A model generated the notes under the pieces. It saw only the letters and a list, made by a program, of their open reading frames with translations. It ran no database searches and was not told where the DNA came from. A stretch of 64,000 nucleotides of DNA from Escherichia coli. GTDB taxonomy: Bacteria > Pseudomonadota > Gammaproteobacteria > Enterobacterales > Enterobacteriaceae. Within the stretch, counting starts at the first letter, position 1. Every line of letters starts with the position of its first letter. The stretch is taken from the NCBI RefSeq assembly GCF_024223415.1, contig NZ_CP100500.1. One strand, written 5' to 3'. Shown here in pieces: positions 233 through 53,642 of this stretch. Both the position numbers and the translations under genes were made by a program.

Positions 233-613
233 GTTTTATGTCCTTTGCAATATTTTGAATTCACCCCTTTTGAGAGGGCGGTCAGGCGCTCAAAACCGTG
301 CAAAGTCGGCGGGCGTATTTCCCTTACGGGTATTGTATTAGCCTCACGCCCGACCATTGAATTCTCAATATCGTGGACATAAAAAATCCGCATGTCTGTC
401 GGGTGCGGTTTCCGCTTTGCAAGGTGTTTTGAGCACCATGACGCGGAATATAGCCCCGTTAACGCGACATTGTCAAACTGAAGAATTTTACGGATAGCAA
501 AAACCCCCGAACTGGTGAGGAACAGGGGTTTTTACTTTACTACTGATTTCGCGGTACGCTGATCTCAAACAGACGAGATTATCACCAGACTTGTAAAGTA
601 AGCAATGGGCGGA

Positions 614-4311: not shown

Positions 4312-4469
4312 AGTTACCTCTAACGGTGAAATTCACCGCCACCACTGAGTTGCAAATCTCATATGGGTGGCGAACTGACGAGGTTTGCAATACCGGCGTT
4401 AGAGGAAACCGGCGCGCCGAAGCGCCCCCGCCAGCCCGCCATAATGCGAACGTGGCAAAGCTTGCGACA

Positions 4470-4500
4470 ATAAAAAAGACGCTGGCGCGTCTGGTGTCGC
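4470..4500 (-). terminator. Rho-independent terminator-like hairpin downstream of the DUF2815 gene
   Basis: On the minus strand, AGACGCGCCAGCGTCT hairpin followed by TTTTTTATT (plus-strand aataaaaaagacgctggcgcgtct). Confidence 0.5.
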
Positions 4501-4691
4501 CCCTAACAATTCCGGGTTGCAAATCCCGATCTCCATTTGGGAGATTCGGTGAGCATAAACCGGAAGGGGGCGATGAGTCAATATCGGGGTAGCAGGGCGA
4601 CTGGGTGCTAACCAGAACAATACAGGTAGCTCCGGGCATATTCCCCTTTGCAAAAACACCCGGCGTTTAACCGGGCGTCTGTGAAGCAGGA

Positions 4692-11640: not shown

Positions 11641-11687
11641 TTCATTTAAATGCATATGCAATGCTGGTGAATGATAAGGGGGTGCAG

Positions 11688-12386
11688 ATGCTGACAGCAA
11701 TCAACAACGAAAAAATTGTCATCGCAAGGGACGCGCAGAAACCGGGAATTTTCGCCTGCCCGGAATGTGGTGAAGTTGTCACCCTGCGGAAAGGTTCGGT
11801 GAAAGTTCACCATTTCGCCCATCGCAGCACCACATCCTGCGGTTACGGGAAAGGCGAATCTGAGTTGCACATGGATTTGAAAATGCAGGTCTATGACGCG
11901 TTGAACGCGCATCGTGAGGTGGAATATGTTGCGATGGAGGTCGCAGTCGGTGATGTTCGTCCCGATGTGCTGGCGATTATTCGGGGTCAGAAGGTTGCTT
12001 TTGAGATTCAGGTTAGTTCGCTGAGTATTGAAGACCTCTATCGCCGCACGGTTGCGTACGCAGCTCAGGACATTGCGATGATCTGGATCCTGCACTGGCC
12101 TGAAGGTACTGCACTGGACCGGCTTTATCACCCTGCATCATGGGAGCGATGGTTACATACTTGCGGAATGGCAACTCTGTACTTCTGGGCGGGCGATGGC
12201 TGGGTCAGGCCAGTGCGTCTGGGAAACCGACAACATGGATTACAAAGAGCACCTCGTGCCCATCTGGTTGATGATTTCGAACCAAAGCGAACAGGCGGGT
12301 GGATTAAAGGTGATTTTCTGATACCTGCTCGCTTTATCTGGAATCGTGTGCGACGGCAAAAACGTAGAGGTCAGAGCTATGCGTAA
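11688..12386 (+). CDS. CoiA-like protein (competence protein CoiA-like family, predicted nuclease)
   Basis: Start at ATG 11688 (AAGGGGG RBS); N-terminal CPECGEVVTLRKGSVKVHHFAH zinc-finger-like segment typical of the CoiA-like family. Confidence 0.5.
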   Translation: MLTAINNEKIVIARDAQKPGIFACPECGEVVTLRKGSVKVHHFAHRSTTSCGYGKGESELHMDLKMQVYDALNAHREVEYVAMEVAVGDVRPDVLAIIRGQKVAFEIQVSSLSIEDLYRRTVAYAAQDIAMIWILHWPEGTALDRLYHPASWERWLHTCGMATLYFWAGDGWVRPVRLGNRQHGLQRAPRAHLVDDFEPKRTGGWIKGDFLIPARFIWNRVRRQKRRGQSYA

Positions 12387-12813
12387 TATTCAACAGGTTT
12401 TAGAGCGCTGGGGTGGCTGGGCTGCCAATAGCAACACCACAGTGAGCTGGGCTCCAATAGCGGCGGGATTTAAAGGGCTGGTAGTCAGCAGCCTGCCTGG
12501 CAGGCTGAGTTGCTGCGACGACGATGGCCTGATTATCGATGCTTGCGTCTGTCGGCTGCAGCAGGTCCGTAAGCCTGAGGAACTGGACGTCATTATGCTG
12601 TACTACGTCTACGGGTTAAGCAAACGTGAGATAGGACGGCGGCGTCGATGTTCTGAAGGATTTATCCGCCAGCAGTTGCAGGTAGCTGAGGGATTCATTG
12701 AGGGGTGTCTCTGCATGCTGGGTGTGAGCCTTCAGATGGATCCTGAGGTCGAAATTCAAAGGGATGAAAAAAGTATTAGTGCGCTACGCAAAAACTGCGC
12801 TACGCTGGTATGA
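12379..12813 (+). CDS. Q: Late-gene antiterminator Q (phage 21/82-type Q family)
   Basis: Sequence MRNIQQVLERWGGWAA ... resembles lambdoid Q antiterminators; position immediately upstream of the lysis cassette. Confidence 0.7.
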   Translation: MRNIQQVLERWGGWAANSNTTVSWAPIAAGFKGLVVSSLPGRLSCCDDDGLIIDACVCRLQQVRKPEELDVIMLYYVYGLSKREIGRRRRCSEGFIRQQLQVAEGFIEGCLCMLGVSLQMDPEVEIQRDEKSISALRKNCATLV

Positions 12814-12989: not shown

Positions 12990-13070
12990 TAGTCATGTAT
13001 CTGACCGCCGCGCGTACTGCAATCGGCAGCGCACCGATGGAAGCCGGTTCGATTCCGGCCGCCACAACCC
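12990..13070 (+). other. tRNA-like element (canonical T-arm GCCGG-TTCGATT-CCGGC and a foldable anticodon-like stem) that does not fold as a complete canonical tRNA
   Basis: gaagccggttcgattccggccgccaca read directly; possible anticodon stem atcgg-cagcgca-ccgat; no convincing D-arm or 5' acceptor strand at the correct spacing. Confidence 0.3.
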
Positions 13071-13187: not shown

Positions 13188-13403
13188 ATGAAATCAATGG
13201 ACAAAATCTCAACTGGCATTGCCTACGGAACATCCGCTGGTAGTGCGGGATACTGGTTTTTACAGTGGTTGGATCAGGTCAGTCCGTCACAGTGGGCTGC
13301 TATTGGTGTGCTGGGGAGTCTGGCACTGGGCTTTCTGACTTATCTGACGAATCTGTACTTCAAGATAAAAGAGGACCGTCGCAAGGCGGCGCGGGGAGAG
13401 TAA
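13188..13403 (+). CDS. S: Class II holin, phage 21 S-type (pinholin) with dual starts MKSMDK
   Basis: 71-aa [74 protein letters not shown], closely resembling the phage 21 S holin as recalled; GGAGG RBS. Confidence 0.85.
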
Positions 13404-13536
13404 TTCAATGGAACATAATAATGAAAAATCCAGAGAGCACTCTGGAAACAGCAAACATTATTCCATTGCTCATTCATTCGGCGGCTTTCGTGATGTAGTC
13501 GGACAGGGTGCTGAGAGAGAACAGGAGAGTAATACA

Positions 13537-14343
13537 ATGACTCAAAACCATGAACTGGTTGTTAAAGGAACCCGAAATTTTGAGAATAAAATTGCGGTGA
13601 TTTTAACCCTGCGTGACAAAAAGCGTTTTGCCTGTGAGATATTTGACTTACACATCAACCTTGAACGACAGGAAGGCGCCACTCTGGAGTTTTATGAGTC
13701 AGAGGCAATAAAACGGGCAAAGACATTGTTCCGGGATGTTGCTGCAGGGTTATGTGAAGGGGACGAGCTGTCGCCGGAAAAGCGCCCCATAATTTTACAG
13801 GCGCACAATGTGTGGATAACCTACAAAGGAAAGCTACCGGGAAGAATTACTGGTTCTCTGAAGATGCCGCCGTCAACACTGCGGTCAGAAAAAGAGGCGT
13901 CTTGTCTGCAGTCTGAGTACTCCATTACGGTTAAAAGTGCCGGAGAGGAAGGAAATAAACGTTATTTTATTGCGTCTGCACCTGATAAAGATCAGGAATG
14001 GGAGTGTAACCGGCCATCCTTTGTTGTATACGGAGATGGCGGGAAAATAACCATCTCAGAAAATGGGAAATTAACACCGCCATCGCACCAGCATAGTGAG
14101 GCGCTCATTGAATTTGCCATTGATTACCTGAAGAACAATAAAAAGCAGGGGCTGATGAAGCGCATTGGTCGTTGCATGGGATATCTGCAGGTAGCAGCTG
14201 AGATTGAAATGATGGCCAGTGGTGCTGACAATGATGCAGTTGTGCTGGAGGCTCTTCTGCGTGATTTTGATAATACGCCCTTTAAGAAAGCACCTGTTGA
14301 CTGGATGCAGCCGGGGATGACTTATCTGAAAGGGCGTATATAA
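13537..14343 (+). CDS. Hypothetical protein (moron inserted between holin and endolysin)
   Basis: ORF track frame 13408..14343; preferred start ATG 13537 preceded by AGGAG; no recognised domain. Confidence 0.45.
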   Translation: MTQNHELVVKGTRNFENKIAVILTLRDKKRFACEIFDLHINLERQEGATLEFYESEAIKRAKTLFRDVAAGLCEGDELSPEKRPIILQAHNVWITYKGKLPGRITGSLKMPPSTLRSEKEASCLQSEYSITVKSAGEEGNKRYFIASAPDKDQEWECNRPSFVVYGDGGKITISENGKLTPPSHQHSEALIEFAIDYLKNNKKQGLMKRIGRCMGYLQVAAEIEMMASGADNDAVVLEALLRDFDNTPFKKAPVDWMQPGMTYLKGRI

Positions 14344-14352
14344 GGTGGCTCG

Positions 14353-14667
14353 TTATCTGTTGCTGGATAATCGACTGAAGATGCGTTCTTTTTGTGTTTT
14401 TGCGTAATGATTGTCCCACTCACAATCAAGGTAGCTTAATTCTTCATTCAACCAGTTATTTATATTGGTCTTAATACGCATAAGCATGGGCTGTGTTAAT
14501 GCTCTGGCGATAATGCCGAGAGTCACAGGTGTGAGATGTCCATACGGCTCAGCCTGAATGGATTTTACTGCATCGTGTTCTTGTGGGAGGAGTAAGAGGC
14601 ACTCTGATTTTACCCGCTCATTTATGGCTTGCAGGCATAAATCATAATTATGTTGATCGTTATGCAT
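14353..14667 (-). CDS. Hypothetical protein, convergent partner of the 13537..14343 moron gene
   Basis: 104-aa ORF on the opposite strand to the late operon; no recognised domain. Confidence 0.4.
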   Translation of the reverse strand: MHNDQHNYDLCLQAINERVKSECLLLLPQEHDAVKSIQAEPYGHLTPVTLGIIARALTQPMLMRIKTNINNWLNEELSYLDCEWDNHYAKTQKERIFSRLSSNR

Positions 14668-14795
14668 GGTTAATCCTCTACTGAAATTGTCAGATATATT
14701 TCAGCCATCAGGAAAAACGCCAGTGTCCTACCGCTGGCGGGCTGAAGATTTAACATATCCAGGGATTCGGAACCGATAAATCCTGATAAATATCC

Positions 14796-15329
14796 ATGAA
14801 CACCAAAATCAAATATGGCCTGTCGGCTGCCGTTCTGGCACTGATTGCCGTCGGTGCGCCTGCGCCTGATATTCTCGACCAGTTTCTGGATGAAAAAGAA
14901 GGTAACCACACAACGGCATACCGCGATGGTTCCGGTATATGGACCATCTGTCGTGGTGCCACAATGGTGGATGGTAAGCCCGTCATACCGGGAATGAAGC
15001 TGTCGAAGGAAAAATGCGTTCAGGTTAATGCCATTGAGCGTGATAGGGCGCTGGCATGGGTGGAGCGCAATATTAAAGTACCTCTGACCGAAGCACAGAA
15101 AGCGGGTATTGCGTCATTCTGTCCCTATAACATTGGCCCCGGTAAGTGTTTCCCGTCGACGTTTTATAAGCGGCTTAATGCCGGTGATCGTAAAGGTGCC
15201 TGTGAGTCGATTCGCTGGTGGATTAAGGACGGTGGGCGTGATTGCCGCACACGTTCAAATAACTGCTACGGACAGGTTATTCGTCGTGACCAGGAAGCAG
15301 CACTTGTGTGCTGGGATATCGACAGATGA
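14796..15329 (+). CDS. R: SAR-endolysin (T4-lysozyme-like muramidase with N-terminal signal-anchor-release domain)
   Basis: N-terminal GLSAAVLALIAVGAPAP SAR-like segment; E...D...T catalytic spacing (DEKEGN, YRDGSG, WTICRG). Confidence 0.8.
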   Translation: MNTKIKYGLSAAVLALIAVGAPAPDILDQFLDEKEGNHTTAYRDGSGIWTICRGATMVDGKPVIPGMKLSKEKCVQVNAIERDRALAWVERNIKVPLTEAQKAGIASFCPYNIGPGKCFPSTFYKRLNAGDRKGACESIRWWIKDGGRDCRTRSNNCYGQVIRRDQEAALVCWDIDR

Positions 15330-15419
15330 GCAGAATATTTTGCTGAAAAATGACGTTGGCCAACGCGGACGGATAACACGATATTCGACATAAATGAATT
15401 TAAATAGTGAATAAAAGCA

Positions 15420-15460
15420 GAAACCCCGATTGTTGGTCGCAATCGGGGTTTTGTGTTTCT
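15420..15460 (+). terminator. Strong hairpin (12-bp stem AAACCCCGATTG / CAATCGGGGTTT) followed by T-rich tract, downstream of the endolysin gene
   Basis: aaaccccgattgttggtcgcaatcggggttttgtgtttc read directly. Confidence 0.55.
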
Positions 15461-15644
15461 GGCAGTAAGTTATGGGAGGCTGCCTTGATTAATTTTAGCG
15501 GAGGAGACTGGATTGTGGAAGCTCTGAAATTGCTCGAAAGAAGTCCGGTTCTGAGAAGAATGTTTTATATAGCTCTTATAGTTATCGGAGCATTCGCCGT
15601 TGCGAAATCACTTCCGGGAATAGCTGAAATCATAAAGGCGCTGA

Positions 15645-15818
15645 ATGCATAAAGAATACCTGGCTGAGGCTGACAAACAGGTCTCTGAATTGAAAGCTCC
15701 GGTAACCGATGACATCAGCGGAGCGGTGGCTTTTGCCATTAAGTGGGTGGCAGTCGGCGTTGCTATATCACCGGTACTGTATGGGCTGGCAAAGCTGGTT
15801 ATTGCGTTGAAATCATAA
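15645..15818 (+). CDS. Small hydrophobic protein (57 aa, one predicted TM helix) within the endolysin-Rz insertion
   Basis: Own translation MHKEYLAEADKQVSELKAPVTDDISGAVAFAIKWVAVGVAISPVLYGLAKLVIALKS; below the ORF-track size cutoff. Confidence 0.3.
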   Translation: MHKEYLAEADKQVSELKAPVTDDISGAVAFAIKWVAVGVAISPVLYGLAKLVIALKS

Positions 15819-15819
15819 C

Positions 15820-15884
15820 TGTTACGGCCAGGTTATTCGTCGTGACCAGGAAAGTGCATTAGCCTGTTGGGGGATAGATCAGTG
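15820..15884 (+). pseudogene. Duplicated 3' end of an endolysin gene (remnant coding ...[20 protein letters not shown]), marking an insertion boundary
   Basis: ctgttacggccaggttattcgtcgtgaccaggaa at 15820 nearly repeats ctgctacggacaggttattcgtcgtgaccaggaa at the 3' end of R (about 15268..15301). Confidence 0.6.
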
Positions 15885-16349
15885 AGCAGAGTCGCCGCGA
15901 TTATTTATGCTCTGGTTATCTGCATCATCGTCTGCCTGTCGTGGGCGGTCAATCATTACCGTGATAACGCCATCGCCTACAAAGAACAGCGTGATAAAAA
16001 AGTCAGTGAGCTGAAGCAGGCGACCGCCACCATTACTGACATGCAGCAACGCCAGCGTGCTGCTGATGTACTCGATGCTAAATACACGAAGGAGTTGGCT
16101 GATGCGAAAGCTGAAAATGATGCTCTTCGGCGCAAGCTTGATAATGGTGGTCGGGTGCTCGTCAAAGGAAAATGCTCTGTGCCATCCTCAGCCGAAACCT
16201 CCAGCGCCTCCGGCATGGGCAATGATGCCACCGTCGAACTCTCTCCAGTTGCTGGACGAAACGTTCTCGGTATCCGGGACGGAATCATCAGAGACCAGAC
16301 AGCACTGAGAACGCTTCAGGAATATATCAGGACGCAATGCCTTCGATGA
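15867..16349 (+). CDS. Rz: Rz i-spanin (inner-membrane spanin subunit); true start probably GTG at 15882
   Basis: [33 protein letters not shown] ... closely resembles lambda Rz as recalled. Confidence 0.8.
16102..16308 (+). CDS. Rz1: Rz1 o-spanin lipoprotein embedded in the +1 frame of Rz
   Basis: [21 protein letters not shown] lipobox and proline-rich [11 protein letters not shown] segment inside the Rz gene. Confidence 0.7.
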
Positions 16350-16550: not shown

Positions 16551-16774
16551 CCATTACAAAAGCCACTCCCTACAGAGTGGCTTTGATAATGGCTTATACC
16601 CTACACGGGATAACTTAACTGATATCCCTTTTAACGGATAAAGGTATTCAAGCCTGACACATCATGCGCTGTATCGTCGCCGTATTCCCGTATTAACAGA
16701 GACCGTAGCCCGACGGGGAACTCCTTCTGCGAGAGTGTGCGGGAATAATCAAAAACGATGCACACCGGGTTTTT
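16551..16774. repeat. Direct repeat copy 1 (~224 bp) upstream of the two-gene cassette
   Basis: Near-identical to 18338..18560, with only a few mismatches by eye. Confidence 0.8.
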
Positions 16775-16899
16775 ACCGCGCTAATGATTCGCGGGTTTGT
16801 CCCTCATGCTCGCCAGTCCTGTGCGAGGGTGGAAGAAACAGGGCATGTATTCAGGAGCGTGCGACCGTGGTCGCACGGTATCTTTGTCAGGAGGTTTTG

Positions 16900-17760
16900 A
16901 TGAAAGAGTTGCAAAAAATTAATTCAATAATGGAAAGGTTAAGTGCTCTTGAGCGTAAGCTGGACGATTGTGGAAAGCTGTGTGTTGAAAAGCAAAATGA
17001 GCTTTACCGGGAATTTTTTACAATCGTAAGTGAGCTGATGCCAATTGTTAATAACTGCCTGATGACATCCAGATTTTTTAATGTCGATGCTACTACATCC
17101 AGAAAATTTTCTGTGAAAATTCAAGAAAGAGTTTCTGGTAGTGTGACAAGAGAGATGGCTGAACAGTTGGTGGCAATGAGCAATAAAACAAAAAGAAAAA
17201 AGGCATTGCTTGTAACAGCAAATCAGCTTTCAGGGCGCGTTGACTTTCAGGTCAGACAGGGTGGGCGTGTACTGGTAAATGATGCGTTCGTTGGACGTAG
17301 CTTTAGTCCTTACTCGATAAAATATGATGTTGATGCAGATGATCAGGATATCAGCATTTCCTGGAAATCTGAGACAGCAGGGATTGTATTAACAGCAGAG
17401 TTGTTGAGTGATGATAAAAATGATGTCCAGCATCATTTGGACGAAAAGAATCATATTTCTGAAATTTGTATGAAGCCACGCAGCGGAATGACTTTATTGT
17501 CACGCACTCTTGCTGCTGGCTTTTCTGCACCGGAAAAACGTGTGCTTCTGGTAGTGCCTGAAGATGCAGATATTCGACCACTGAATGGCTGTGATGTTAT
17601 TAGTGCAAAAACATTGCATACCCGCGTCATTCCTGTACCGGATGTGGTCATTATTGATGATGTTGAGAAATGCAAGTCTGTTTCCTCAACTGCCACAATC
17701 AAGCGAATTTTACGTTGTAGCACGTCGGCTGTTGTATTCCGGAAGCAGTTACATAACTAA
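16900..17760 (+). CDS. Hypothetical soluble protein (~286 aa), first gene of the repeat-flanked cassette
   Basis: ORF-track frame 16735..17760; preferred start ATG 16900 with AGGAGG RBS; N-terminal coiled-coil-like segment. Confidence 0.5.
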   Translation: MKELQKINSIMERLSALERKLDDCGKLCVEKQNELYREFFTIVSELMPIVNNCLMTSRFFNVDATTSRKFSVKIQERVSGSVTREMAEQLVAMSNKTKRKKALLVTANQLSGRVDFQVRQGGRVLVNDAFVGRSFSPYSIKYDVDADDQDISISWKSETAGIVLTAELLSDDKNDVQHHLDEKNHISEICMKPRSGMTLLSRTLAAGFSAPEKRVLLVVPEDADIRPLNGCDVISAKTLHTRVIPVPDVVIIDDVEKCKSVSSTATIKRILRCSTSAVVFRKQLHN

Positions 17761-17886
17761 CCAGTTTTGTTTTGCAGAACATCCTCAACTAAAAGCTTAT
17801 AGAAAGAGAGCCTGAGATATTTTTTCTGTCTCTCGTAGTTGTTTGTTTTTTTTTTCGAACAGGCTTACAACTTACAGGATATAAAC

Positions 17887-18336
17887 ATGCAAGAAGAAGC
17901 AAATAAAATTCTTGTTGATTTATTGAAGAAGGCCAGCGATGGAATTGATTCCGCCATTGCATTCAGTCAGGCTCAGATTCCGGATGTTGTTCATCAGTTG
18001 CTGGTATGGAATATGGTTGATAGCCTGATTAAAACATTAATAGCCATTTCAACAATCCCTCTGGTTTTCTGGTTTATGAAGAAGCAGTGCCAAAGAGTTG
18101 AGACAGGTAAAATCGGTGATGAAGGATATTCATGGGAGAAGGGAAATCCCAAATACAGGCCGACAATGGTTTGGGATAGCAAAGGTGATATTAATCTTCT
18201 TATCGTGCCATTGGTTGGAGTTTTGACTATGTGGGGGATTTTTATTATTTGTGCAGTAACCAATATGACATGGTTAAAAATCTGGCTGGCACCTAAGTTA
18301 TATCTAATCGAATACGCAGCATCACTAATTAAATAG
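17887..18336 (+). CDS. Small membrane protein (~150 aa, two predicted TM helices), second gene of the repeat-flanked cassette
   Basis: ORF-track frame 17839..18336; start ATG 17887; hydrophobic segments LIKTLIAISTIPLVFWFM and LLIVPLVGVLTMWGIFIICAV. Confidence 0.5.
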   Translation: MQEEANKILVDLLKKASDGIDSAIAFSQAQIPDVVHQLLVWNMVDSLIKTLIAISTIPLVFWFMKKQCQRVETGKIGDEGYSWEKGNPKYRPTMVWDSKGDINLLIVPLVGVLTMWGIFIICAVTNMTWLKIWLAPKLYLIEYAASLIK

Positions 18337-53456: not shown

Positions 53457-53642
53457 AGTGGCTCATTCACCGACTTATGTCAGCCCCTTCGGGACGTGCT
53501 ACATAAAATTCGAATGACGCACAACAAGGTGCCTGCCGTCCAACTTCTGATATCAGCGTAGCTATATCAACCATCGGGCGAAACGTCGAGTTAGGCACCG
53601 CCTTATTCCATAACAAAGCCGGGTAATTCCCGGCTTTGTTGT
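53457..53642 (+). ncRNA. glmY: GlmY small regulatory RNA
   Basis: Begins agtggctcattcaccgacttatgtcagcccc downstream of the sigma-54 promoter, ends at terminator aaagccgggtaattcccggctttgttgt; located between purL and glrK as in E. coli K-12. Confidence 0.8.

What the first reader, a model, noticed from the sequence alone, without database searches (positions are those of the whole stretch)
13404..14700. Convergent gene pair inserted between holin and endolysin
In lambdoid lysis cassettes the holin and endolysin genes are normally adjacent. Here about 1.3 kb separates them and carries a ~268-aa protein (co-directional, starting right after the holin) and a 104-aa protein on the opposite strand, neither with a recognisable domain. 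The position guarantees expression at least in late lytic growth; the antisense gene implies its own promoter.
Basis: partly seen in the sequence, partly recalled or inferred. Interest (0 to 1): 0.6.

Follow-up and report, generated by a model that had tools for sequence, protein, structure and literature searches.

The report
Moron plus reverse-moron gene pair
Between the holin and endolysin genes of this E. coli prophage sits a known kind of phage add-on: a late-expressed YdfR-family gene facing a small gene with its own promoter-like leader; both genes are real and their function is untested.

Summary
The convergent pair is real. The forward gene (13537-14343, 268 aa) is not domain-less. 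It carries an N-terminal DUF1327/YdfR domain (Pfam E 8e-28) and a conserved C-terminal domain. A DUF1327 gene occurs in about 80% of complete E. coli genomes, and in K-12 Qin it lies between an S21-type holin and the endolysin, so a gene at this position is ordinary. The 104-aa antisense gene (14353-14667) is under purifying selection (dN/dS 0.24-0.37) and folds confidently as a five-helix bundle with no informative relatives. It is rare (94 of 5426 E. coli genomes). In 11 lineages examined, from E. coli, Salmonella and unassigned contigs, it is always convergent with the C-terminal domain, even where the pair lies upstream of the holin. An 80-130 nt promoter-like, hairpin-bearing leader precedes it. 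The same leader precedes at least 12 unrelated small antisense ORFs, including HK97 gp23 ("reverse moron"), HK022 gp23 and ES18 gp25. Each faces a DUF1327-related forward "moron" gene. The identical pair is already annotated in Stx2-converting phage 86. Verdict: a new member of the known moron/reverse-moron kind. No toxin-antitoxin, defence or lysis signature was found.

The parts
13188..13403 (+). S21-type class II (pin)holin; left flank of the cassette (context)
   Evidence: phrog_9876/phrog_20 holin, E 6e-35; PGAP calls the homologue 'class II holin'
13404..13536 (.). 129-nt spacer between the holin stop and the forward-gene start. It is flanked by the direct repeat GGAGAGTAAT(T/A)CAATG (13395 and 13524). 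It holds a minus-strand terminator-like hairpin at 13446..13429. It keeps the frame open from ATG 13408, giving an alternative 311-aa product.
   Evidence: found in only 2 of 5426 E. coli genomes
13537..14343 (+). Forward gene, a 268-aa long-form YdfR-family protein. It has an N-terminal DUF1327 domain (about 13537-13836), a low-confidence, variable linker, and a conserved C-terminal domain (about 14020-14340; motifs PPSHQH, KRIGRCMGYLQVAAEIE, DFDNxPFK..W..PG..YLK.RI).
   Evidence: Pfam E 8e-28; phrog_1085 E 3e-138; 84% identical to Stx2-phage 86 gp05; the two-domain layout is kept in relatives with 35-45% identity
14353..14667 (-). Reverse (antisense) gene: a 104-aa soluble five-helix protein of the phrog_1853 family
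   Evidence: phrog_1853 E 8e-50; 100% identical to Stx2-86 gp06; dN/dS 0.24-0.37; AF2 pLDDT 88; no TM segment
14664..14746 (-). Conserved leader of the reverse gene. It comprises 5' UUCAGCC, hairpin 1 (14739..14718, CGCCAGYG-loop-CACUGGCG), a GGCUGA motif (14706..14701), a second hairpin (14704..14681), an SD and the AUG.
   Evidence: covariance model R1 gives 68.9 bits as the only hit in the 64 kb, though the window sequence was a training row; pattern expected 0.02 times by chance; 92% of cells paired against 30-46% in slid controls
14752..14780 (-). Candidate sigma-70 promoter of the reverse gene: -35 TTTATC (14780..14775), 17-nt spacer, -10 TATGTT (14757..14752). The -10 lies 7 nt before CAGCC, and that spacing is kept in all leaders examined. 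The -35 overlaps the translation-start region of the endolysin.
   Evidence: read from the alignments; only 7 of 12 consensus matches, and not reported by the consensus scan
14796..15329 (+). SAR endolysin (R21-type lysozyme); right flank (context)
   Evidence: phrog_7 endolysin E 4e-60; N-terminal hydrophobic SAR-like segment

Best explanation
This is a two-gene accessory cassette of the 'moron + reverse moron' kind that circulates among lambdoid phages of E. coli and Salmonella.

Shown. (a) The forward gene is a soluble YdfR-family protein with a DUF1327 N-domain and a conserved C-domain. It lies in the Q-dependent late operon. (b) The reverse gene encodes a selected, well-folded 104-aa helical cytoplasmic protein. 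(c) The reverse gene carries a conserved promoter-like -10 at a fixed distance from a structured leader. That leader is shared with at least 12 unrelated small reverse genes. (d) This reverse-gene family is always found convergent with the forward C-domain, at two different positions in the late operon.

Inferred. The reverse gene is transcribed on its own in the lysogen, or before late transcription begins. Q-antiterminated late transcription then runs head-on through it, silencing it by interference and antisense pairing while it produces the forward protein. The 104-aa protein is the specific partner of the forward C-domain, most likely as a binder or antagonist that keeps leaky forward protein inactive. 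By homology with K-12 YdfR, whose first 72 residues suffice to bind the catalytic half of RNase E and which co-purifies with RNA, the N-domain links the forward protein to RNase E and RNA metabolism during late growth.
For: Forward gene. It matches DUF1327 at E 8e-28. It is 55% identical to K-12 YdfR over residues 1-74. That is the region sufficient for binding RNase E 1-597 in two-hybrid tests; full-length YdfR also co-purified with RNase E 1-598, and the preparations carried RNA (PMC13232886). A Q-like antiterminator lies 375 nt upstream of the holin. Neither protein has a TM segment.

Reverse gene. It shows purifying selection and a confident fold.

Linkage. About 60 loci carry the reverse gene with its 3' flank present. 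In all of them it lies within about 40 nt of, or slightly overlapping, a convergent forward gene: the C-domain itself was detected in about 60, and in L121 only a DUF1327-bearing 217-aa convergent gene was seen. These loci represent 11 lineages with 40-100% identity. In Salmonella the pair lies upstream of the holin. It is also present in L024 and L120. The two genes have diverged in step at depth (both about 40-50% identical between the E. coli and Salmonella groups; r = 0.82). Within E. coli their alleles are shuffled relative to each other, yet they stay paired. One locus with the C-domain but no reverse gene keeps a 20-nt scar of the reverse gene's 3' end.

Leader. It is conserved with partly covarying hairpins. 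Its G.U wobbles fit the reverse-gene strand in 6 variants against 1. Model R1 detects it in ES18, L121, L026 and L002, none of which were used for training.

Class. HK97 gp22/gp23, HK022 gp22/gp23 and ES18 gp24 (DUF1327)/gp25 are annotated as moron and reverse moron.
Against: No experiment bears on this pair. The promoter is weak by consensus (7 of 12 matches) and the generic scan did not report it. No classical terminator follows the reverse gene, apart from a hairpin 900 nt away that only this rare variant has.

Long-form forward genes without the reverse gene exist (L005-L014, L025, L026). The reverse gene is therefore dispensable, which fits an antidote role poorly.

The strict adjacency could come from shared descent of a 1-kb cassette, because only about 11 lineages were sampled.

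The forward structure model is poor (pLDDT 50), and no hetero-complex prediction could be run. K-12 YdfR overproduction changed few transcripts (PMC13232886), so the significance of its RNase E binding is itself unsettled.
Confidence: 0.5

Rival explanations
1. These are two independent cargo genes. The forward gene is a late accessory protein and the reverse gene is an unrelated lysogeny-expressed moron, for example a lysogenic-conversion or exclusion factor. They are neighbours only because they travel on one small cassette.
For: At the same position other phages carry unrelated reverse genes behind the same leader: 13 BLAST-unrelated clusters, with no profile similarity. Forward genes occur without the reverse gene. 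Morons are defined as independent transcription units (PMC3594210).
Against: I found no phrog_1853 gene away from a C-domain in 11 lineages. This held across relocation to another site in the late operon and across allele shuffling.
Confidence: 0.25
2. The reverse transcript matters more than its protein. An RNA made in the lysogen and antisense to the late operon would damp leaky late or holin expression, or exclude related superinfecting phages, as the STnc6030 asRNA does in Salmonella prophage BTP1.
For: The convergent arrangement has a 9-nt gap, so the transcripts must overlap. The only minus-strand terminator-like site downstream is at 13446..13429, just before the holin. There is a precedent in an exclusion asRNA within late genes (PMC7067206). 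The 5' leader is conserved while the ORFs vary.
Against: The ORF is under clear purifying selection and has a confident fold, so the protein is functional. The two ideas do not exclude each other.
Confidence: 0.1
3. This is a toxin-antitoxin or abortive-infection module in which one product is toxic and the other neutralises it.
For: Two small adjacent genes are tightly linked. HicAB and RelB/ParE modules lie nearby in related Salmonella prophages, so this region does collect such cargo.
Against: The genes are convergent rather than an operon. No toxin, antitoxin or defence profile matches. The pattern of loss is the reverse of what TA logic predicts: the presumed 'toxin' side survives alone and the small gene is never alone. 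Overexpression of K-12 ydfR was not reported to arrest growth, unlike yegJ (PMC13232886).
Confidence: 0.07
4. The pair comprises lysis-timing regulators (antiholin-like or endolysin-control proteins) that are an integral part of the S21-type lysis cassette.
For: In E. coli the pair lies between holin and endolysin, and the forward gene starts where translational coupling to the holin is possible. A screen cited in PMC13232886 linked ydfR to envelope integrity.
Against: Neither protein has a TM segment or signal sequence. The same pair lies upstream of the holin in Salmonella. Related cassettes lie among tail genes in HK97, HK022 and ES18. Position in the lysis cassette is therefore not conserved.
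Confidence: 0.05

Closest known systems
Stx2-converting phage 86 gp05 (YdfR family) / gp06 (hypothetical), NC_008464
   Same: It has the same convergent pair between holin and lysozyme. The reverse protein is 100% identical and the forward protein 84% identical, with an identical C-terminal part.
   Different: In phage 86 the forward gene starts 4 nt after the holin stop. The window has an extra 129-nt spacer. Neither gene has been characterised.
HK97 gp22 'moron' / gp23 'reverse moron'; HK022 gp22 / gp23 ('srb protein'); ES18 gp24 (DUF1327) / gp25
   Same: Each is a convergent pair within a late operon. The reverse gene sits behind the same leader; R1 scores 75.9 bits for ES18, which was not used for training, and 68.6 and 90.7 bits for HK97 and HK022, which were training rows. 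The forward genes are DUF1327 (ES18) or share the 'RAKEYA' module that is also present in some long YdfR proteins.
   Different: These pairs lie among tail genes (I-J or M-L), not in the lysis cassette. Their reverse proteins are unrelated to the window's. Their forward genes lack the C-domain. Late-strand terminators are annotated there but are absent here.
E. coli K-12 Qin prophage YdfR (P76160)
   Same: It has a DUF1327 domain, 55% identical over 74 residues, and it sits between the S21-type holin EssQ and the lysozyme RrrQ.
   Different: It is 103 aa, with the N-domain only, no C-domain, no reverse gene and no leader. It is the only family member with data: it binds the RNase E N-terminal half and co-purifies with RNA (PMC13232886).
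Lambda bor and other lysogen-expressed morons (HK97 gp15)
   Same: They are small genes next to or inside late operons, with their own promoter and atypical GC (the definition in PMC3594210). Bor is likewise inverted next to the lysis genes, and bor/iss homologues lie downstream of Rz in related prophages.
   Different: Bor and gp15 are envelope proteins with known phenotypes. The 104-aa protein is cytoplasmic, helical and untested.
RapZ-type RNase E adaptor; phage RNase E modulators (T4 Srd, T7 gp0.7, phiKZ Dip; these three from my own knowledge)
   Same: This is a 'works-like' lead only. YdfR binds the catalytic half of RNase E as RapZ does, and it co-purifies with RNA (PMC13232886).
   Different: There is no sequence or fold relation. 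No target RNA is known. Nothing has been tested for the long form.

Membership tests
YdfR / DUF1327 family (PF07041) | Significant match to the Pfam DUF1327 profile | tested here: met
   E 8e-28 over residues 1-100 of the 268-aa protein
YdfR / DUF1327 family (PF07041) | Binds the N-terminal catalytic half of RNase E, the only reported activity (K-12 YdfR) | not testable with these tools
   Only homology is available: 55% identity over the region (residues 1-72) sufficient for the interaction (PMC13232886)
phrog_1853 (reverse-gene family) | Significant match to the PHROG profile | tested here: met
   E 8e-50 over residues 1-103; relatives in Salmonella with 40-47% identity
Moron (Juhala et al. 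2000, as summarised in PMC3594210) | Extra DNA between genes that are adjacent in related phages | tested here: met
   In K-12 Qin ydfR overlaps rrrQ with no reverse gene. L009 and L012 have 36-42 nt between the forward gene and the lysozyme, and L012 keeps a deletion scar.
Moron (Juhala et al. 2000, as summarised in PMC3594210) | GC content differs from that of the neighbours | tested here: met
   Reverse gene 41.0% and forward gene 46%, against holin 50.9%, endolysin 51.5% and Q 53.2%
Moron (Juhala et al. 2000, as summarised in PMC3594210) | Own promoter | tested here: inconclusive
   A -10-like TAnnGT/TATGTT hexamer lies 7-8 nt before CAGCC in all 19 leaders examined. TTG-type -35 hexamers occur in the Salmonella-type leaders. 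The window's -35 matches only 3 of 6 positions. The generic scan found nothing.
Moron (Juhala et al. 2000, as summarised in PMC3594210) | Own terminator | tested here: inconclusive
   No intrinsic terminator-like site lies right after the reverse gene. The nearest on that strand is at 13446..13429.
Moron (Juhala et al. 2000, as summarised in PMC3594210) | Expressed from the repressed prophage | not testable with these tools
   This needs RNA-seq or 5'-RACE of a lysogen
HK97/HK022/ES18-type 'moron + reverse moron' cassette | Reverse gene preceded by the shared hairpin leader and convergent with a DUF1327-related forward gene | tested here: met
   R1 scores 68.9 bits at 14664-14746(-), though the window sequence was a training row. 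The same model hits ES18, which was not used for training, and the training members HK97 and HK022.
Type II toxin-antitoxin system | Two co-directional, co-transcribed genes | tested here: not met
   The genes are convergent, with stop codons 9 nt apart
Type II toxin-antitoxin system | Recognisable toxin or antitoxin domain | tested here: not met
   No such Pfam, NCBIfam or PADLOC match
Known anti-phage defence systems (PADLOC-DB 2.0) | Match to a defence-protein model | tested here: not met
   0 families at E <= 0.1 for both proteins
Lysis proteins (holin/antiholin, SAR endolysin, spanin) | Transmembrane, SAR or lipoprotein signal segment | tested here: not met
   The maximum Kyte-Doolittle 19-residue window is 0.87 (forward) and 1.16 (reverse), against 1.59 for the holin and 1.87 for the SAR endolysin

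The most novel reading that the evidence does not exclude
The constant parts of these cassettes may work together. On this reading the DUF1327 domain is an RNA-binding adaptor for RNase E, in the manner of RapZ. Its target would be the conserved, structured leader (5' UCAGCC, hairpin 1, and a GGCUGA loop that could pair with the 5' end). That leader heads the convergent reverse-moron mRNA. Late expression of the forward protein would then switch off whichever lysogeny gene the cassette carries. The variable parts (here the C-domain and the 104-aa protein) would form a second, protein-level partnership. This would be a new phage-encoded post-transcriptional switch shared by many lambdoid phages, and a new cis-regulatory RNA motif that is absent from Rfam.
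Probability: 0.12. Interest if true: 0.7.

Novelty: new member of a known kind. Interest (0 to 1): 0.35.

Why it matters
As a finding about this window it is ordinary. A YdfR-family gene in an S21-type lysis cassette is the rule in E. coli. This exact pair has been in GenBank since the Stx2-phage 86 genome was deposited.

Three side results may be worth a follow-up.
1. The 'YdfR family' appears to be ancestrally a two-domain protein, of which the K-12 protein represents only the N-terminal part.
2. One reverse-gene family is strictly tied to the C-terminal domain across E. coli and Salmonella, which gives a concrete pair of proteins to test for binding.
3. A conserved, hairpin-bearing leader heads at least 12 unrelated reverse-moron genes in classical phages (HK97, HK022, ES18) and in Stx prophages.

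Together with the recent report that YdfR binds RNase E, this gives a testable route to the function of a gene family present in most E. coli genomes.

Tried and rejected
- NCBIfam and PADLOC scans of both proteins found nothing.
- Pfam on the reverse protein gave only a chance-level hit.
- The AF2 model of the forward protein was poor (pLDDT 50) and Foldseek against the PDB gave nothing at E <= 0.001.
- Profile searches of PDB sequences found nothing.
- Rfam found no family for the leader.
- hhalign between the window's reverse protein and the reverse proteins of BL21, PhiR5_1 and L005 showed no relation. I therefore dropped the idea of one broad reverse-gene superfamily.
- A genome-contig scan for the reverse family found none in the species-representative genomes.
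- I rejected the hairpin as an intrinsic terminator, because the T-run is absent from most variants.
- I rejected a conserved upstream leader peptide (ATGGCTGA...), because its frame and stop are not conserved (read).
- Literature searches for DUF1327, YdfR and HK022 'srb' gave only the RNase E interaction paper.
- I looked for the pair in reference EHEC strains to use their transcriptomes. It is not in the usual reference genomes.

Full report
**What is there.** The window is an E. coli chromosome segment: purL is 100% identical to several strains, and glmY lies at 53457-53604. It carries a lambdoid prophage. A Q-like antiterminator (12346-12813, phrog_79) is followed 375 nt later by an S21-type holin (13188-13403). 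A SAR endolysin lies at 14796-15329, and Rz with embedded Rz1 at 15867-16349. The 1392 nt between holin and endolysin hold a + strand ORF and a - strand ORF. Their stop codons are 9 nt apart.

**The forward gene.** The ORF is open from ATG 13408 (311 aa). The homologues and PGAP start at the ATG at 13537 (268 aa), which has AGGAG 7 nt upstream. The 129 nt in between is a rare spacer, found in 2 of 5426 E. coli genomes. It is flanked by a direct repeat of the holin-stop/start junction.

The protein has a Pfam DUF1327 domain at residues 1-100 (E 8e-28) and is what NCBI calls a 'YdfR family protein'. The domain is followed by a variable linker that AF2 models with low confidence. A conserved C-terminal domain of about 110 residues comes last.

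An exhaustive HMMER search with the C-domain found only 21 cluster representatives. The distant ones (35-45% identity) keep the same layout of N-domain, linker and C-domain. The long form therefore appears to be the ancestral architecture, and K-12 YdfR (103 aa) corresponds to the N-domain alone.

**How common it is.** DNA similar to the N-domain occurs in 4348 of 5426 complete E. coli genomes. In K-12 Qin the order essQ-ydfR-rrrQ is contiguous. BL21(DE3) and many phages have holin, YdfR, a small antisense gene, then lysozyme. A gene between the S21-type holin and the endolysin is therefore the norm in E. coli, not an anomaly. The exact pair is gp05/gp06 of Stx2-converting phage 86, where the reverse protein is 100% identical.

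**Linkage of the two genes.** A profile search extended the reverse family to Salmonella (41-47% identity) and to unassigned contigs. About 60 loci carry the reverse gene with its 3' flank present. In about 60 of them I detected the C-domain in a convergent forward gene that lies within about 40 nt of the reverse gene or slightly overlaps it. In L121 I confirmed only a convergent 217-aa gene with a DUF1327 hit, 11 nt away. Together these loci represent 11 lineages.

In Salmonella prophages the pair sits between Q/HicAB and the holin, not between holin and endolysin. The pair therefore moves as a unit. Both genes have diverged to about 40-50% identity between the E. coli and Salmonella groups (r = 0.82). 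Within E. coli their alleles are shuffled relative to each other but remain paired.

The converse does not hold: long-form genes exist without the reverse gene. One of these (L012) keeps a 20-nt scar of the reverse gene's 3' end fused to the endolysin upstream region, which indicates secondary loss. This asymmetry, in which the reverse gene is never alone, argues against classical toxin-antitoxin logic. It favours the view that the small protein is an accessory partner of the C-domain. Shared descent of a 1-kb cassette cannot be excluded with 11 lineages.

**The leader.** Upstream of the reverse gene is a conserved element: TTCAGCC, then an 8-bp hairpin (CGCCAGTG-loop-CACTGGCG; window 14739..14718), then a stretch that contains GGCUGA, then the SD, with the ATG 47-52 nt after the hairpin. 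The hairpin pattern occurs once in the 64 kb, against 0.02 expected by chance.

Scanning IMG/VR for the hairpin gave 29 further phage loci in which the element, with its TTCAGCC context, precedes a small ORF of 58-104 aa. With the loci already in hand, the ORFs behind this leader fall into 12 BLAST-unrelated clusters. The BL21 gene, behind a variant hairpin that the model does not detect, makes a thirteenth. In most leaders a second hairpin (GGAGG ... CCUCU or covarying variants) presents the loop AUGGCUGAU.

On a 17-sequence alignment, 92% of cells pair, against 30-46% when the partners are slid. Three pairs of the second hairpin show changes on both sides, although the three window-type rows are out of register there. 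G.U wobbles fit the reverse-gene strand in six variants and the opposite strand in one, which is the window's own. The invariant 5' UCAGCC is complementary to the invariant loop GGCUGA. A pseudoknot is therefore possible, but I found no clear covariation to support it.

A -10-like hexamer (TAnnGT or TATGTT) lies 7-8 nt before CAGCC in all 19 leaders examined, and TTG-type -35 hexamers lie 17-18 nt upstream of it in the Salmonella-type leaders (read). In the window the -35 is weak. Rfam has no matching family. A covariance model built from the alignment finds one copy in the window. It also detects ES18, L121, L026 and L002, none of which were in the training set.

**Connection to known biology.** The same leader is in HK97, HK022, ES18, HK633, mEp213, mEp043, SPN3UB and other phages. 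In the HK97 record the small gene is 'Gp23, reverse moron product' and faces 'Gp22, moron product' between tail genes I and J. In HK022 it is gp23 ('srb protein') facing gp22. In ES18 it is gp25 facing gp24, a DUF1327 protein, between tail genes M and L.

The forward partners elsewhere begin with an MTLEQRVExLE coil or carry a 'RAKEYA' beta-rich module. That module also occurs inside some long YdfR proteins such as P0079. The forward genes therefore look like shuffled modules of one loose superfamily. The similarity to DUF1327 is only marginal for some of them.

The window's pair is thus a member of the moron/reverse-moron class first annotated in HK97 and HK022. The definition of that class (own promoter and terminator, atypical GC, extra DNA relative to relatives, expression from the prophage) is summarised in PMC3594210. 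GC content and the extra-DNA criterion are met. The promoter and terminator criteria are inconclusive. Expression cannot be tested here.

**Mechanism.** The only functional data for the family come from Göpel et al. 2026 (PMC13232886). K-12 YdfR binds the N-terminal catalytic half of RNase E in two-hybrid tests. Full-length Strep-tagged YdfR co-purified RNase E 1-598, and its preparations carried RNA. In the two-hybrid tests residues 1-72 were sufficient. Overproduction had little effect on the transcriptome.

My best model has confidence 0.5 for the overall picture and much less for the details. The forward protein is a late-phase cytoplasmic factor tied to RNase E and RNA. The reverse gene is transcribed independently in the lysogen and is overridden by head-on late transcription. 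Its product partners with the C-domain.

The rivals are:
- independent cargo genes (0.25);
- an antisense-RNA function like BTP1 STnc6030 (0.1; PMC7067206), which is not exclusive of the best model;
- a toxin-antitoxin or abortive-infection module (0.07);
- lysis regulation (0.05), which is disfavoured because related cassettes sit upstream of the holin or among tail genes.

**Verdict.** The side results give testable leads for a very common E. coli prophage gene family: the two-domain ancestry of YdfR, the strict pairing of the C-domain with the phrog_1853 gene, and the shared structured leader.

Noticed in passing
window 13395-13554: A 129-nt spacer separates the holin stop from the forward-gene start. 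It is bounded by a 31-nt direct repeat (13395-13425 and 13524-13554, 77% identical; the first 16 nt match at 15 of 16). The repeat duplicates the holin-stop/SD/ATG junction. The spacer leaves an in-frame 43-codon extension from ATG 13408 and holds a minus-strand terminator-like hairpin at 13446..13429. Only 2 of 5426 E. coli genomes have it.
   Followed up: partly
window 15330-15866: A second insertion in the lysis cassette lies between the endolysin and Rz. It holds two small ORFs with strong hydrophobic segments (15407-15652, 81 aa, no PHROG; 15645-15818, 57 aa, phrog_1115 of unknown function). It also holds a 14-bp bidirectional terminator-like hairpin at 15420-15452, with a minus-strand promoter-like site at 15519..15492 just upstream of it.
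   Followed up: no
window 13000-13070 (+): A weak match to the 3' end of tmRNA (Rfam RF00023, model positions 302-374, 16 bits, E 0.001, below the gathering score) lies between the Q gene and the holin. ARAGORN finds no tRNA or tmRNA there. It may be a remnant of an ssrA-type attachment core, or it may be chance.
   Followed up: no
window 4363-4545 (-) and 272-355 (-): Matches above the gathering score to C4 antisense RNA (RF01695) and isrK (RF01394) lie side by side, and sRNA-Xcc1 (RF02221) lies near the window start. The C4/isrK pair suggests a P1/P7-type antisense-controlled antirepressor region in this prophage.
   Followed up: no
window 16735-18336 (+): Two low-GC ORFs (36-43% GC) of unknown function lie between Rz and the small terminase subunit (16735-17760, phrog_2571; 17839-18336, phrog_3054). 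They look like further cargo in the late operon.
   Followed up: no
window 11661-12386 (+): A 241-aa ORF immediately upstream of, and overlapping, the Q-like gene has no PHROG match at E <= 1e-5.
   Followed up: no
L012:4985-5060 compared with window 14338-14366 and 14773-14798: This is a locus with a long YdfR gene but no reverse gene. It retains the last roughly 20 nt of the reverse gene (its stop and final codons), joined directly to the endolysin upstream region at a GATAA microhomology. It is a clean deletion scar showing loss of the reverse gene and its leader.
   Followed up: yes
L005-L008 (E. coli prophages, some next to stx): Here the domain order is inverted and split. The order is holin, a 213-aa protein with the C-domain (no DUF1327), a separate 75-aa DUF1327 gene, a different reverse gene (phrog_10490, related to ES18 gp25), then lysozyme. 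This shows that the modules of the forward gene are shuffled as units.
   Followed up: partly
L073-L078, L026 (Salmonella-type prophages): HicAB, and in some loci RelB/ParE, toxin-antitoxin modules lie next to the pair in the Q-to-holin interval. A strong late-strand terminator-like hairpin (GCCGC...GCGGC followed by a T-run) lies just upstream of the reverse gene's promoter region.
   Followed up: no
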